This document shows, in pieces, positions 1-5,666 of a DNA stretch of 64,000 bases. The notes beneath the pieces are model-generated. The model did not search any database and was not told the DNA's origin. It was given only the letters and a program-made list of their open reading frames with translations. Made by a program: the position numbers and the translations under genes. The number at the start of each line of letters is the position of its first letter. Positions within the stretch are counted from its first letter, which is position 1. The DNA comes from Planctomycetota bacterium. Lineage in GTDB: Bacteria > Planctomycetota > UBA1135 > UBA2386. The DNA is taken from NCBI GenBank assembly GCA_965223545.1, contig OZ245006.1, forward strand, positions 5,280,001-5,344,000, given 5' to 3'.

Positions 1-1
1 G

Positions 2-1471
2 GACCTCGGCGCGGCTCTCGAGCAGCTCGAGCTGTGCCGCTCGCTGGTCGAGGAGACCGCCGAACCGGTCGACGTCAAGTGGGCCCAGGACAAGAAGCTG
101 GAGAAGGTCATCGGAGACCTGCGGACCTACATCGGCAACGCCGCGGCGCTGGAGCGCGTCGCTCGCGAGCTGGTGCTGGCCGGCGACTGGCGCCAGGCGC
201 GCGAGAAGCTGCTCGAGCTGACCAGCAAGTACGACATGACCGAGGTCGCCAAGCGGGCGCGCATCCCGGTGATGCTGACGTCGCGCCCGGCCGGCGCGGT
301 GATCGCGCAGGGCGGCAGGCCGCTGGTCAAGGTGGTGGACGGCGCGGAGGTCGAGCTGCGCACTCCCGCCGTGGTGTTCTGCCAACAAGAGATCGAAGAG
401 CGCTTCATGCTGCGGCACCCCGGCTTCAAGCCGGTGGTCGTCGACCTGCGGGCCGCCGAAGCGGCGGTCTCGCATCACGTGCTCAGCGTCGTGCCCGCCG
501 CGGTGATCGATTTCGGCGCGCCCGTGCAGACCGCACCCGGCGTGGGGCGCGATTACCTCGTCGCCGGTCTACAGGGTGGTCGTTTGGGAGTGGCGCGCAG
601 TGACGGCGGCGGCCGCCTGCCCGGCGTCCAACTCGAGGACCTGCGCGAAGTCGTGGGCCGCCCGGCCGTGGTCGGTGATCACTTCTACTTCCGCACCAAC
701 CAGTCCGAGATCGTCTGCCGACTCCTTTCGGGGCTGCAGCGCTGGGTGTCGGGCAACGGCGTCACCGCCGCTACCGATCCGGTCGTCGTCAACGGCCGCG
801 TGCTGTTCTTCGACATCGACGGTGGGCTGGTGTGCTTGGACGCCGACGACGGCAGCGAGTTCTGGCGGGCGACGATGCCGTCGCCGGCGGCCGGGCTGCC
901 GGCTGCCGAGGGGCGTCTGGTCCGGGTCGGAACCACCGCCGGCGAGCTGCTGCTGATCGACCTGGTGAGTGGCGCGGTCCTGCGGCAGTACTCGGGATTG
1001 CCCGGGTTCGGCTCGTCGCCGCTGTTGGCGCCCGCCCGGGTGGCCTACGGCACGGTCGAGGGTCGAGTCGCGCTGGTCGACGAAAAGCGCGGAGTCTTGA
1101 TCTGGAGCATGGACGTCGGGCGTACGCCTTCCACGGGTGAGATTGCCGTGGTCGGCGACAGCGTCGTGGTCCTCGCGCAGGGTGATCGGATCGTGCGCCT
1201 CAGCATGCTGGATGGCGCCGAGGCGGCTCAGTTCAAGCTGCCTGGTGCCCGGTTGTCCGGGCCCTTGGCAGTGGGGTCGCGGGTGTTCGTCACGGCGAGG
1301 GTCGTCGCGTCCGACCGCAGCCGGCAGGACGTGCTGATCGCCCTGGATGCGGAGACCATGCAGATCGCCTGGGAGTTCAGTGACGGTGGTCTGTTCCGGG
1401 GCCCGCTCGGGGCGGACGCAGAGTCCGTCTACCTGCCGGATTCCACGACGCGAGTCGTCCGATTCCAGTGA
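2..1471 (+). CDS. PQQ/BamB-like beta-propeller repeat protein (5' end lies outside the window)
   Basis: Frame is open from base 2 to TGA at 1471. Repeated propeller motifs such as 'LVCLDADDGSEFW', 'ALVDEKRGVLIW' and 'IALDAETMQIAW'. Confidence 0.75.
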   Translation, partial: DLGAALEQLELCRSLVEETAEPVDVKWAQDKKLEKVIGDLRTYIGNAAALERVARELVLAGDWRQAREKLLELTSKYDMTEVAKRARIPVMLTSRPAGAVIAQGGRPLVKVVDGAEVELRTPAVVFCQQEIEERFMLRHPGFKPVVVDLRAAEAAVSHHVLSVVPAAVIDFGAPVQTAPGVGRDYLVAGLQGGRLGVARSDGGGRLPGVQLEDLREVVGRPAVVGDHFYFRTNQSEIVCRLLSGLQRWVSGNGVTAATDPVVVNGRVLFFDIDGGLVCLDADDGSEFWRATMPSPAAGLPAAEGRLVRVGTTAGELLLIDLVSGAVLRQYSGLPGFGSSPLLAPARVAYGTVEGRVALVDEKRGVLIWSMDVGRTPSTGEIAVVGDSVVVLAQGDRIVRLSMLDGAEAAQFKLPGARLSGPLAVGSRVFVTARVVASDRSRQDVLIALDAETMQIAWEFSDGGLFRGPLGADAESVYLPDSTTRVVRFQ

Positions 1472-1566: not shown

Positions 1567-2688
1567 TTGGTCAAGCTGCTACAGCGCCTGAAGATCTGGC
1601 GAGAGCTCAAGCGCCTGGAGACCAAGGCGCGCGAGACGCCGTCCCCGACCACGTACGTGGATCTCGGCCAGGTCTACATCAACCTCGGCATGCACGATCA
1701 GACGTTGCGTGTGTCCGAGGAAGGGCTCGCGCTGTTCCCCGACTCGAAGGAGCTGCGCAAGCTCAACAACTTCGCGAAGAAGAGCCACCTCAAGACCCGG
1801 ATCAAGGAGCTGCGCACTCGGCTCAACAAGAGCCCCGACCCGGATCTGTACCGCGATCTCGCCGGGTTGTATCTCAACCTCGGCGACCACGGCGCCGTGC
1901 TCGGTACCTGCGAAGAGGGCGTCCGCCGGTTCCCGGACGACCCCGGCGCGTACTTGGTGATGGCGCGCGCGCGGTTGGAGGGCTTCTACCGCGACCTACG
2001 GGCGCACGATGGCATGGAGGCGGTGCGCTGCTTGGGCAAGGTCATCTCGCTCGAGCGCGACAACGCCCGGGCGCACAAGCTGATGGCCGAAGTGCTGTAT
2101 CGCGTCGGTGCGCTCAACCGCGCGGTGCACCACCTCAAGTTCTTGCGCGAGCTGGACTCGAGCGATTTCGAAGTCGAGGCGTTGTTCCGTCGTGCGGACG
2201 CCGAGGCCGACGGCGGGCAGAAAGAGGACGTCGACCAGCTGTTCCTCGAGGTCGAGGGGCGCCGGTTGCTGGCCCGCGGGCCGGTGGGAGAGCCGCCGCG
2301 CGATGCCAAGGGCGCCGCGCAGGACGCCGACGTCGGCTCGATCCGCGACTCGCTGGGCAGCATCGCGGAGATCCCCGGCGTCATCAAGGCGACCTACATC
2401 AAGGGTGCCAAGGCGTTGGTGAAGGGCCGGATCAAGAACGGCAAGGATCCGTTCCTCAAGTTGTCGCGCGTCGTGAGTCAGGCGGCGCAGCGGTCGTGCA
2501 AGCGGATGGATCTCGGCAACTTCTCCAAGGGTGTGGTCGACGGCGACTTCGGTCACGTCTGCATCTGCTGCTACGGAGACGTGGTCGCGGCGGTGCTGTG
2601 CACGTCCAACACCCCGCTCTCTCGGGTGATGAACGACCTGCAGGAGCTGGTCGCCAAGTCTCTCTACACCGCTGAGGTTGCCGGCTGA
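1567..2688 (+). CDS. TPR-repeat protein with C-terminal roadblock/LC7-like domain
   Basis: Helical TPR-like repeats ('YVDLGQVYINLG', 'YRDLAGLYLNLG', 'AHKLMAEVLYRVG'). The C-terminal ~120 aa ('LGSIAEIPGVIKATYI...') resemble a roadblock fold. Its stop overlaps the next start. Confidence 0.7.
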   Translation: MVKLLQRLKIWRELKRLETKARETPSPTTYVDLGQVYINLGMHDQTLRVSEEGLALFPDSKELRKLNNFAKKSHLKTRIKELRTRLNKSPDPDLYRDLAGLYLNLGDHGAVLGTCEEGVRRFPDDPGAYLVMARARLEGFYRDLRAHDGMEAVRCLGKVISLERDNARAHKLMAEVLYRVGALNRAVHHLKFLRELDSSDFEVEALFRRADAEADGGQKEDVDQLFLEVEGRRLLARGPVGEPPRDAKGAAQDADVGSIRDSLGSIAEIPGVIKATYIKGAKALVKGRIKNGKDPFLKLSRVVSQAAQRSCKRMDLGNFSKGVVDGDFGHVCICCYGDVVAAVLCTSNTPLSRVMNDLQELVAKSLYTAEVAG

Positions 2689-3053
2689 TGAGTCAAATCG
2701 CCAAGATCCTGCAGAAGATGGGCGATGTCGACGGCATCAAGGGAACCGCAGTGCTGACCGGCGATGGCATCATGGTCGCCAGCACGCTCGGCGAGGAGTT
2801 CCTGGACGACGTCGTCGCCGGGCTGAGCTCATTCTTGATCACCACGACCCGCCGCTCGCTGGGCGAGGCGGGCATGCCGACGGCGTTCTCCCGCTTCACG
2901 CTGAACTCGACGCACGGCAAGGTCGTGCTCGTCGAGCTGGGTGAGGCGTTCCTGGTTGTGATCACCAACCAGTTCGCAGATCTCGACCGCTGCTACGTGG
3001 ACATCGACGCCGCGGCGAAGAAGCTGCGCAAAGTGTCCAAGATCCAGGTCTGA
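2688..3053 (+). CDS. Roadblock/LC7 domain protein (MglB/MglC-like)
   Basis: 'DVDGIKGTAVLTGDGIMVAS' roadblock signature; 121 aa; next to mglA. Confidence 0.85.
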   Translation: MSQIAKILQKMGDVDGIKGTAVLTGDGIMVASTLGEEFLDDVVAGLSSFLITTTRRSLGEAGMPTAFSRFTLNSTHGKVVLVELGEAFLVVITNQFADLDRCYVDIDAAAKKLRKVSKIQV

Positions 3054-3296: not shown

Positions 3297-4274
3297 ATGG
3301 TTCAGATCAACTTCGCTCTGAAGGAAGTCAACTGCAAGATCGTGTTCTACGGTCCGGGCATGAGTGGCAAGACCACCAACCTCGAGATCGTGCACCAGAA
3401 AGCGCCCGAGGAGAACAAGGGCGAGTTGACGTCTATCTCAACGGACGGCGACCGGACGCTGTTTTTCGACTTCATGCCTCTCGACCTCGGCAACGTGGCC
3501 GGGATGCGCACGAAGTTCCAGCTGTACACGGTTCCCGGCCAGGTCTACTACAACTCGACGCGCAAGCTCGTGCTGCAAGGTGTCGACGGCGTCATCTTCG
3601 TCGCGGATTCGGATCCCGAGAAGATGCCGGAGAACATCGAGAGCTACGACAACCTGATCGAGAACCTCCGCGAGTACGGCAAGGACATCCGCGAGCTTCC
3701 GCACGTCCTGCAGTACAACAAGCGCGACTTGCCGGGGGCGCTGTCCGTCGAGGAGATGGACCGGCAGCTCAACAAGTTCAGCGTGCCGACGTTCGAGGCG
3801 GTGGCGACGACGGGTGAGGGCGTCTTCCCGACGCTCAAGGTGCTGGCCGGCCTCGTGCTGGAGAGCATCGACCGGATGGACAACCGGCGCCCGACGCCGA
3901 AGCCCGCTGCCAAGCCGCAGGCCGCTGCGGCGCGCGCCGAAGGCGCGCCGGCGCAGGGTGGCCAGCAGCCGCAGCGGCGTCGCAAGCCGCAGCCCGGCGG
4001 CAAGGGCCAGGGCCAGCAGCGGCGCAAGGGCCAGGGCGGCGGCCAGCAGCGCCAACGTCCGACCCGCCAGGCGGCAGGCCAGCGCGGGGGGCGGAGCGCG
4101 CCGCAGCGCAAGGGCGGTCAGCGCGACGGCGGCAGCCGGCAGCGCCAGCGCCCGAACAAGAGCGAGGCGAGCTCGGGGCGCAGCGGCGGTGTGGCGATGG
4201 CGGTGGTCTTGACGTTGTTCTTGGCCGGGGCCGTTGCCGGGGCAGTCTTCTTCTTCATGCAGCAGCAGGGGTGA
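3297..4274 (+). CDS. mglA: MglA-family small GTPase with low-complexity linker and C-terminal hydrophobic helix
   Basis: 'KIVFYGPGMSGKTT' (G1), 'RTLFFDF', 'LYTVPGQVYY' (G3) and 'QYNKRD' (G4) match the Myxococcus MglA family. AGGA upstream. Confidence 0.92.
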   Translation: MVQINFALKEVNCKIVFYGPGMSGKTTNLEIVHQKAPEENKGELTSISTDGDRTLFFDFMPLDLGNVAGMRTKFQLYTVPGQVYYNSTRKLVLQGVDGVIFVADSDPEKMPENIESYDNLIENLREYGKDIRELPHVLQYNKRDLPGALSVEEMDRQLNKFSVPTFEAVATTGEGVFPTLKVLAGLVLESIDRMDNRRPTPKPAAKPQAAAARAEGAPAQGGQQPQRRRKPQPGGKGQGQQRRKGQGGGQQRQRPTRQAAGQRGGRSAPQRKGGQRDGGSRQRQRPNKSEASSGRSGGVAMAVVLTLFLAGAVAGAVFFFMQQQG

Positions 4275-4278
4275 TCGG

Positions 4279-4800
4279 ATGTCTGGCAACGGCATGAGTG
4301 CGAATGAGCGTTTGCGCCACGATCGGCTCACCTTCTACAAGGAGGACATCGATCAGATCGACAAGCTGCTCAACGAGTTCCTGCGTCTGTCGGGGGCCAA
4401 GTGCGCCGTTCTGATCGACAAGGAAGGCCACCTCGTCACCAGAGCGGGCGAGGTCAACACCGTCGACATGGACACGATCTCCGCGCTGGTCGCGGGATCG
4501 TTCGCCGCCACCAAGGAGATGGCCCGCCTGCTCGGCGAGGACGAGTTCTCCGCACTGTTCCACCAGGGTGAGCGGGACAACATCCAGCTGTCGCTGGTCG
4601 GCGACCGGACGTTGCTGACGATCTTGTTCGACGAGCGCACGACGATCGGCATGGTGCGGCTGTACGCGAGCGAGACCGCGAAGAAGCTGGCGACCATCTA
4701 CGAGCAGGCGCAGCGGCGCAGCGACGAGGGCGGCGGCCCCGAGCTCGACTCGGAGTACGGCGACGACGCCAAGCGGAAGCTGGAGAACCTGTTCGACTGA
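4279..4800 (+). CDS. mglB: MglB (roadblock-fold GAP of MglA)
   Basis: 'AKCAVLIDKEGHLV', 'SALVAGSFAAT', 'LLGEDEFSALFHQGERDNI' and a C-terminal 'LENLFD' helix are characteristic of MglB. Confidence 0.9.
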   Translation: MSGNGMSANERLRHDRLTFYKEDIDQIDKLLNEFLRLSGAKCAVLIDKEGHLVTRAGEVNTVDMDTISALVAGSFAATKEMARLLGEDEFSALFHQGERDNIQLSLVGDRTLLTILFDERTTIGMVRLYASETAKKLATIYEQAQRRSDEGGGPELDSEYGDDAKRKLENLFD

Positions 4801-5318: not shown

Positions 5319-5666
5319 ATGGCTGCTAAGAAGAAGGCGACCAAGAAGAAGACCGCCCGCAAGGCGACCAAGAGGAAGGCGACCAAGCGGAAAGCGGCGA
5401 AGAAGAAGGCCACCAAGAAGAAAGCGACCAAGAAGAAGGCCGCCAAGAAGAAGGTGACCAAGAAGAAGGCGAAGAAGAAGGCCAAGAAGAAGGCCACGCG
5501 CAAGAAGGCCACGAAGAAGAAGGCCACCAAGAAGAAGGCCAAGAAGAAGGCCACGCGCAAGAAGGCTGCGAAGAAGAAGACCACCAAGAAGAAGGCCAAG
5601 AAGAAGGCCAAGAAGAAGGCAACTCGCAAGAAGGCCACCAAGAAGCGGGCGACTCGTCGGGCCTGA
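5319..5666 (+). CDS. Histone H1-like lysine/alanine-rich nucleoid protein
   Basis: 115 aa made almost entirely of KKKAT/KKKAA/KKKAK repeats; GAGGA RBS upstream. Confidence 0.85.
   Translation: MAAKKKATKKKTARKATKRKATKRKAAKKKATKKKATKKKAAKKKVTKKKAKKKAKKKATRKKATKKKATKKKAKKKATRKKAAKKKTTKKKAKKKAKKKATRKKATKKRATRRA

What the first reader, a model, noticed from the sequence alone, without database searches (positions are those of the whole stretch)
3297..4274. Tail-anchored MglA GTPase
Seen: a complete MglA G-domain (~195 aa, with the catalytic Arg in RTLFFD and Gln in TVPGQ). It is followed by ~105 aa of Q/R/G/P-rich disordered linker and a 23-aa hydrophobic stretch (VAMAVVLTLFLAGAVAGAVFFFM) ending 4 residues before the stop. 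Known: Myxococcus MglA is a soluble single-domain protein positioned by partner proteins. Inference: this is a Ras-like GTPase tethered by its own tail anchor, an unusual topology in a lineage known for elaborate membranes and polar growth.
Basis: partly seen in the sequence, partly recalled or inferred. Interest (0 to 1): 0.75.

Follow-up and report, generated by a model that had tools for sequence, protein, structure and literature searches.

The report
Tail-anchored MglA GTPase of Planctomycetota
A bacterial Ras-like polarity switch (MglA), known as a small free-floating protein, is here tied to the membrane by a floppy leash and a terminal membrane helix; this design is conserved across many uncultured planctomycete lineages, where some relatives swap the helix for a different membrane-binding tip, and it appears not to have been studied.

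Summary
Real and conserved, not a read-through. ORF 3297-4274 (325 aa) is a Group-1 MglA with every catalytic residue in register (G21, R53, T54, Q82, NKRD), a 103-aa basic disordered linker and a 23-aa hydrophobic helix ending 4 residues from the stop. 81 of 82 complete unique orthologues have such a tail; 79 of 81 obey the positive-inside rule. It lies in a conserved module: DUF4388-TPR-TM-propeller, TPR-roadblock, roadblock, MglA, MglB. In 8 of 8 module copies of one low-G+C class, and in 40 of 88 distant non-TM relatives, the leash ends instead in a basic amphipathic MinD-like motif, which supports membrane tethering. Two large Planctomycetota classes showed no MglA (0 of 61, 0 of 41), so the link to model budding planctomycetes is probably wrong. 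The reference survey excluded MglAs over 240 aa; ten literature searches found no description. Best reading: a membrane-confined GTP switch, probably steering pili or surface motility (output inferred). This scan reported the same family before on other DNA. New variant of a known kind.

The parts
3297..4274 (+). mglA-like gene, 325 aa: G domain + linker + tail anchor
3297..3881 (+). Group-1 MglA G domain (aa 1-195); G21, K25, T26, R53, T54, F56/F57/F59, TVPGQ78-82, NKRD141-144
   Evidence: G21, K25, T26, R53, T54, T78-Q82, N141, K142, D144 invariant in 71 aligned orthologues
3882..4190 (+). basic low-complexity linker, aa 196-298, predicted disordered; sequence poorly conserved, length 73-273 aa in orthologues
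4191..4259 (+). predicted transmembrane tail anchor, aa 299-321, followed by 4 polar residues
4279..4800 (+). MglB (roadblock), 4 bases after the mglA stop; putative GAP
   Evidence: Pfam Robl_LC7 E 3.4e-15; PDB MglB 6h5b E 4.6e-29
2688..3053 (+). small roadblock protein, 121 aa, not MglB-like
   Evidence: Robl_LC7 E 1.8e-07; best PDB hits are generic roadblock proteins, E 3.5e-06, none named MglB or MglC
1567..2688 (+). TPR protein, 373 aa, with a C-terminal region that clusters with the small roadblock protein
   Evidence: TPR_14 E 5.7e-13; same BLAST cluster C2 as the roadblock; the roadblock fold of this region is inferred, Pfam does not call it
1..1471 (+). 3' part of a 1066-aa gene that begins before the window: DUF4388/PATAN + TPR, one TM (aa 462-480), then a PQQ-type beta-propeller

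Best explanation
A catalytically intact Group-1 MglA GTPase that is permanently inserted in the inner membrane by a C-terminal tail anchor, with the G domain in the cytoplasm on a roughly 100-residue flexible, basic leash. SHOWN (sequence level): intact active site; conserved linker-plus-helix layout; N-in charge asymmetry; coupling to mglB and two more roadblock-type genes; anchor replaced by an amphipathic motif in some lineages. INFERRED: because it cannot leave the membrane, its GTP/GDP cycle does not relocate it through the cytoplasm as in Myxococcus. Instead the cycle switches partner binding in two dimensions: MglB dimers turn it off, the TPR-roadblock/roadblock pair is a second regulator or adaptor, and the membrane-spanning DUF4388-TPR-propeller protein is a landmark or sensor. 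The likely output is spatial control of type IV pili or surface motility (about 45% for this last step). Insertion is probably post-translational via a YidC-type insertase (inference).
For: Catalytic residues in register with MglA, which match the Group-1 definition, Arg next to G2 Thr and TVPGQ (PMC4316618 passages; PMC3199381 passages). Tail conserved in 81 of 82 complete unique orthologues, the window's own protein included. Uncharged run 19-29 aa, C-tail 0-8 aa, more K/R before than after the helix in 79 of 81, equal in 2. Among 84 classified phylum-wide loci, 54 tail-anchored and 7 with TM plus a longer C-tail. Anchor swap: 40 of 88 non-TM relatives end in a basic F/L-F/L-x-x-L/F-F motif, against 0 of 1720 internal cut points of the same proteins. 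8 of 8 module copies in the class of G067 end in a basic amphipathic motif, hydrophobic moment 0.70-0.85, with no TM. Module conserved. The genome encodes PilM, many PilB/PilT-type ATPases, MreB and three YidC-like genes. PATAN/DUF4388 domains bind PilB and PilC in Synechocystis (10.1101/2021.06.11.447907 passages).
Against: No experiment shows membrane insertion, GTP hydrolysis or any partner binding. The module MglB keeps the A64-equivalent but has Glu at the G68-equivalent of the MglA-binding patch in 97 of 105 matched ORFs (not de-duplicated), so its GAP interface may differ. No pilus or motility gene is part of the conserved neighbourhood, so the output is indirect inference, and the genome has 8 DUF4388 loci. 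One complete orthologue (L020) ends at 207 aa, about 75 bases before its contig end. 48 of 151 representative proteins have neither anchor by my rules. The helix is Ala/Gly-rich and moderately hydrophobic.
Confidence: 0.78

Rival explanations
1. Same tethered switch, different output: it marks membrane domains for envelope remodelling, shape change, division or prey engulfment rather than pilus placement, working like Rag GTPases on the roadblock-heterodimer Ragulator or like membrane-bound Rabs.
For: Three roadblock-type proteins and a bitopic TPR/propeller protein travel with the GTPase. No tubulin/FtsZ was found in this 91%-complete genome. The module was not found in two large classes but is present in 9 of 9 genomes of a low-G+C class with 2-11 MglA-family matches each. 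A preprint gives about 34-39% G+C for the predatory classes and places them as sister to the shape-shifting 'Saltatorellus' clade (10.64898/2026.10.26.761892 passages).
Against: Class names are hidden by the tool, so the match to the predatory and shape-shifting clades is inferred from G+C and family structure only. Presence across so many families argues for a general function. All characterised Group-1 MglAs in the listed papers act on motility, pili or predation.
Confidence: 0.3
2. The hydrophobic C-terminal helix is not membrane-spanning but an oligomerisation or partner-binding helix, and the protein is soluble.
For: The helix is rich in small residues; A312, A314 and G315 are conserved in 90% or more of 40 aligned orthologues, which suggests helix-helix packing.
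Against: 19-29 residues with no charge, basic residues only on the N-side. Some orthologues carry 40-100 extra residues after the helix, as in a bitopic protein. Replacement by an amphipathic membrane-binding-type motif.
Confidence: 0.06
3. Assembly or read-through artefact: a normal 195-aa MglA whose stop was lost.
For: The linker is low-complexity in a high-G+C genome, where long open frames arise by chance; L020 ends at 207 aa.
Against: 81 of 82 complete orthologues; an identical contig in a public run; the stop sits 4 bases before mglB.
Confidence: 0.01

Closest known systems
Group-1 MglA with its GAP MglB (Myxococcus xanthus, PDB 6h17/6izw/6h5b; Thermus thermophilus, PDB 3t12)
   Same: G domain aligns without gaps, same numbering, intrinsic Arg53 finger, Gln82, TVPGQ; adjacent mglB.
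   Different: 130 extra residues with a linker and a TM anchor; gene order mglA-mglB, against the mglBA order written in PMC3199381; two more roadblock-type genes and a bitopic DUF4388-TPR-propeller gene; Glu at the MglB G68-equivalent.
MinD C-terminal membrane-targeting sequence (amphipathic helix)
   Same: The alternative tail tips in relatives are basic, aromatic and amphipathic, at the extreme C-terminus behind a flexible linker. MinD uses such a helix (PMC6771821 passages).
   Different: The window's protein has a full TM helix. The likeness of the motif letters to MinD's is recalled, not aligned here; membrane binding of these tips is untested.
Eukaryotic membrane-anchored small GTPases (Rab, and Rag on Ragulator; tail-anchored Miro and TM-anchored SR-beta are recalled)
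   Same: G domain + hypervariable linker + C-terminal membrane anchor; roadblock partners (PMC10933270 passages).
   Different: Bacterial MglA-type catalysis with an intrinsic Arg; a peptide anchor rather than prenylation; almost surely convergent (inference). PMC10933270 reports that Asgard Rab-like proteins lack the C-terminal extension.
MglA-TPR effector systems (SgmX in Myxococcus, the Bdellovibrio TPR partner) and PATAN/DUF4388 pilus regulators
   Same: TPR and DUF4388 domains are encoded beside mglA. PMC4316618 notes occasional PATAN neighbours of Group-1 MglA.
   Different: Here they are fused to a roadblock region or to a TM-propeller; no binding shown. SgmX papers were seen as search listings and abstract starts only.

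Membership tests
Group-1 MglA (Wuichet & Sogaard-Andersen, PMC4316618) | Intrinsic Arg finger next to the G2 Thr | tested here: met
   R53-T54, invariant in 71 of 71 aligned rows
Group-1 MglA | G3 motif TVPGQ | tested here: met
   T78-Q82 invariant in 71 of 71
Group-1 MglA | P-loop G1 and NKxD G4 | tested here: met
   G19, G21, G24, K25, T26, N141, K142, D144 invariant
MglA family | Coupled to an mglB within four genes | tested here: met
   mglB at 4279-4800, E 4.6e-29 to M. xanthus MglB
MglA family as surveyed | Single-domain protein of 150-240 aa | tested here: not met
   325 aa; the survey excluded sequences over 240 aa. Its Table 1 counts 488 MglA-subclade sequences, of which 449 are small.
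MglA family | GTP hydrolysis stimulated by MglB | not testable with these tools
   Needs a biochemical assay
MglB GAP | Small residues at the alpha-2 patch (M. xanthus A64/G68) | tested here: inconclusive
   A64-equivalent kept, G68-equivalent is Glu
Tail-anchored membrane protein | Single hydrophobic helix within about 30 aa of the C-terminus and no other TM | tested here: met
   aa 299-321, 4 aa from the end; hydropathy scanned on the tail, the rest is the soluble G domain
Tail-anchored membrane protein | N-in topology (positive-inside) | tested here: met
   79 of 81 orthologues
Tail-anchored membrane protein | Actual post-translational membrane insertion | not testable with these tools
   Needs fractionation; YidC-like genes present
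Myxococcus polarity module (RomR/RomX, MglC, Agl-Glt gliding) | Presence of RomR/RomX and the gliding machinery | not tested
   Not searched; the small roadblock has no MglC-named PDB hit

The most novel reading that the evidence does not exclude
The five-gene module is a bacterial counterpart of membrane-bound Rab/Rag switches: a tethered Ras-like GTPase with three roadblock partners and a transmembrane scaffold that defines membrane domains in the shape-shifting and predatory branch of Planctomycetota. It is absent from the model classes. In the low-G+C class that may be the engulfing bacteria, the permanent helix was exchanged for a reversible amphipathic tip and the MglA family expanded to as many as 11 copies. 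That would make it a missing regulator of bacterial crawling and phagocytosis-like uptake; the recent screen for that machinery omitted small GTPases.
Probability: 0.17. Interest if true: 0.92.

Novelty: new variant of a known kind. Interest (0 to 1): 0.62.

Why it matters
Bacterial Ras-like GTPases are described as soluble and positioned by partners, and a C-terminal membrane anchor on small GTPases has been proposed as a eukaryotic innovation (PMC10933270). A phylum-scale bacterial subfamily with linker plus anchor, and with two interchangeable anchor chemistries, shows convergence on that design. It also changes how the polarity switch must work, since a TM-anchored MglA cannot oscillate through the cytoplasm. 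It gives a concrete, testable candidate regulator for the unexplained crawling, shape-shifting and engulfment of deep-branching planctomycetes.

Tried and rejected
Complex prediction of TPR-roadblock + roadblock + MglA G domain + GTP gave 'no answer' (score 0.00, mark 0.32); it is no evidence either way. Run search: no RNA holder listed, so expression is untested. Cluster look-up of 10 representative proteins gave no accessions and two generic names, so the taxa of the large amphipathic-tip clade stay unknown. Supplements of PMC4316618: three files searched for planctomycete names with 0 hits, but file 1 could not be searched and may hold the per-genome tables. Promoter scan: 0 sigma-70-like sites and 2 terminator-like sites against 1.4 expected by chance. 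The AlphaFold model is unreliable for residues 1-90 and was not sent to a fold search. The tree (FastTree, 217 of 228 G domains, midpoint root, no AU test) puts most amphipathic-tip proteins in one clade (66 rows, support 0.90) and three (L211, L212, P0081) among TM-anchored rows; this suggests repeated swaps but gives no direction. Rows dropped: 14 of 96 unique orthologues open at contig ends; L152 and L170 missed by the motif search, so 84 of 86 phylum loci were classified; L253, L273 and L280 not printed. L232, counted as tail-anchored, is really an MglA-pentapeptide-ion-channel fusion. L213 and L214 have weak TM tails that my rule scored as 'other'. The representative library is clustered on full length, so short canonical MglAs are under-counted and those numbers are not frequencies. 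NCBI class labels of the MAG records (for example 'Brocadiaceae') were not trusted for taxonomy.

Full report
OBSERVATION. The ORF runs from ATG 3297 to TGA 4274 on the + strand and gives 325 aa. Residues 3-192 align without gaps to Myxococcus MglA (PDB 6h17, E 8.6e-73). The numbering is identical: G21, K25, T26, R53, T54, F56/F57/F59, T78-V-P-G-Q82, N141-K-R-D144. These are the residues that PMC3199381 (passages read) names as catalytic, and that PMC4316618 (passages) uses to define Group 1. Residues 196-298 are a basic low-complexity linker. Residues 299-321 are uncharged with mean hydropathy 2.47, reached by 0 of 10,000 shuffles of the tail, and QQQG follows. AlphaFold2 gives coil for the linker and a confident helix at 298-323, but a poor N-terminal half of the G domain. 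One public contig spans 2600-5000 with no difference; it may be the source of the window.

CONSERVATION. 54 of 61 related genomes, the window's own included, had a match. From 130 loci I obtained 96 unique proteins. 14 run off a contig end; of the 82 complete ones, 81 end in a hydrophobic helix 0-9 residues from the stop (window included; length 294-495, median 328). The exception, L020, stops at 207 aa about 75 bases before its contig end. In those 81 the uncharged run is 19-29 aa and the linker 73-273 aa (median net charge +17). K/R are more numerous before than after the helix in 79 and equal in 2. So the linker letters drift, while its character and the anchor are kept. Named records with this gene are Planctomycetota MAGs.

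DISTRIBUTION. In an even sample of the phylum, 144 of 251 genomes matched at E 1e-20 or better. Of 84 loci classified (86 fetched): 54 tail-anchored (one of them a different fusion, L232), 7 TM with a 40-100 aa C-tail, 2 amphipathic tip, 9 other, 8 open, 4 short. The set includes some paralogues outside the module. Two large classes gave nothing: 0 of 61 genomes at 95% completeness or more and 0 of 41, with queries that match elsewhere. A third class gave 11 of 31, patchy by family and mostly a short 195-aa type. The tool hides class names. From four large families with many closed 5-9 Mb genomes I infer that the first is Planctomycetia; that is inference, not a result.

ANCHOR SWAP. Among 150 representatives from a 1.8-billion-protein search plus the query, 52 are tail-anchored, 8 have a TM with a longer tail, 40 end in a basic motif with two pairs of large hydrophobic residues, 48 have neither and 3 are short. 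The motif is at the true end in 40 of 88 non-TM proteins and at 0 of 1720 internal cut points. It resembles the MinD membrane-targeting helix (described in PMC6771821, passages; the likeness of letters is recalled). Within the same operon context, L211 and L212 carry it. In the class of G067 (9 of 9 genomes positive, 2-11 matches each) all 8 copies flanked by both mglB and the small roadblock lack a TM and end in a basic amphipathic motif; the ninth genome is 59% complete. Two different chemistries at the same position behind the same leash are the best indirect evidence that the job of the tail is membrane attachment.

MODULE. The gene order is DUF4388-TPR-TM-PQQ-propeller (1066 aa, TM at 462-480), TPR protein with a roadblock-like end (1567-2688), small roadblock (2688-3053), mglA, mglB (4279-4800; E 4.6e-29 to Myxococcus MglB). 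Among 61 distant loci including the window's, the roadblock cluster occurs in 49, MglB in 45 and the large protein in 37. Across 160 overlapping loci, 96 hold all five genes within the fetched flanks. 77 of 106 long homologous ORFs of the large protein have exactly one TM by a strict rule, 28 none and 1 two. MglB keeps the A64-equivalent but has Glu at the G68-equivalent in 97 of 105 matched ORFs, a departure in the patch known to bind MglA. The genome encodes MreB, PilM, 17 PilB/PilT-type matches over the cut-off and three YidC-like genes; no FtsZ/tubulin was found (91% complete).

MECHANISM. Shown: an intact Group-1 active site, a conserved leash and anchor, N-in charge bias, and linkage to MglB and two more roadblock-type genes. 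Inferred: insertion after translation, G domain in the cytoplasm, and a GTP cycle that gates partner binding in the plane of the membrane rather than pole-to-pole relocation. MglB is the likely off-switch, the TPR-roadblock/roadblock pair a second regulator or adaptor, and the bitopic protein a landmark or sensor. For the output I put about 45% on pilus or surface-motility control, because PATAN/DUF4388 domains bind PilB and PilC in Synechocystis (10.1101/2021.06.11.447907, passages) and characterised Group-1 MglAs regulate pili and motility (listings). I put about 30% on membrane remodelling, shape change or division, and the rest on other outputs.

LITERATURE. Ten searches found no description of a TM- or tail-anchored MglA. 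None of the 20 papers listed that contain 'MglA' contains 'tail-anchored'. PMC4316618 excluded MglAs over 240 aa and does not contain 'planctomyc' in its main text; one supplement was unreadable. The term 'Mgl' occurs 0 times in the Saltatorellota preprint (10.1101/817700), in PMC11032199, in PMC11481906 and in the 2026 predatory-planctomycete preprint. That preprint states that 'small GTPase' entries were omitted from its eukaryotic phagocytosis gene list, and gives about 34-39% G+C for the predatory classes (10.64898/2026.10.26.761892, passages). All papers were read as term passages only; the library lacks most subscription journals. The loci of the class of G067 have 31-40% G+C, so this class may be that group; untested by name.

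EARLIER SCAN NOTES. Seven earlier reports describe the same tail-anchored family and module on other genomes, and four describe MinD-like tips on MglA in other phyla. I had reached both readings before seeing them (notes). They are not independent support.

VERDICT. Observation confirmed and interpretation supported, with the lineage context corrected. It works like MglA and meets the Group-1 catalytic and coupling criteria, but fails the single-domain size criterion: a new variant of a known kind, apparently undescribed. Interest 0.62.

Noticed in passing
L051:5908-7653 (G000:C1:8045500 region): Second MglA-like gene, fused to a HisKA/HATPase_c histidine kinase. In 17 of 17 homologues read, the Arg finger is replaced by Ala or Ser while TVPGQ and NKxD are kept: a GTPase-kinase fusion common in this order.
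   Followed up: partly
G067, G128, G096 (loci L241-L267): MglA-family expansion in low-G+C genomes: 11, 11 and 15 matches, many in long frames of 600-1300 aa.
   Followed up: partly
L232:2766-5576 (-): 936-aa fusion of an MglA G domain, pentapeptide repeats and an Ion_trans_2 channel domain.
   Followed up: partly
window 5319-5666 (+): 115-aa Lys/Ala-rich repeat protein (KKKATKKKA-type), histone-H1-like by recollection; no Pfam match.
   Followed up: no
window 4279-4800 and orthologues: Module MglB has a conserved Glu at the position of M. xanthus G68, inside the MglA-binding patch.
   Followed up: partly
G000:C1:732153, 5123646, 5589337: Three YidC-like (60KD_IMP) genes in open frames of 648, 950 and 1429 aa.
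   Followed up: no
G000:C1:49021-49500 (-): A second DUF4388 protein in a 1242-aa frame, scoring as high as the module's large protein; possibly a paralogue.
   Followed up: no
L197, L200, L203, L208, L213, L218: In these loci the large DUF4388-propeller gene is absent from the flanks and other conserved genes (clusters C11-C13, C16, C17) surround the four-gene core.
   Followed up: no
P0140, P0145, P0147, P0148: Another long MglA type whose C-terminus looks like a small folded beta domain rather than an anchor; no Pfam match for P0140's tail.
   Followed up: no
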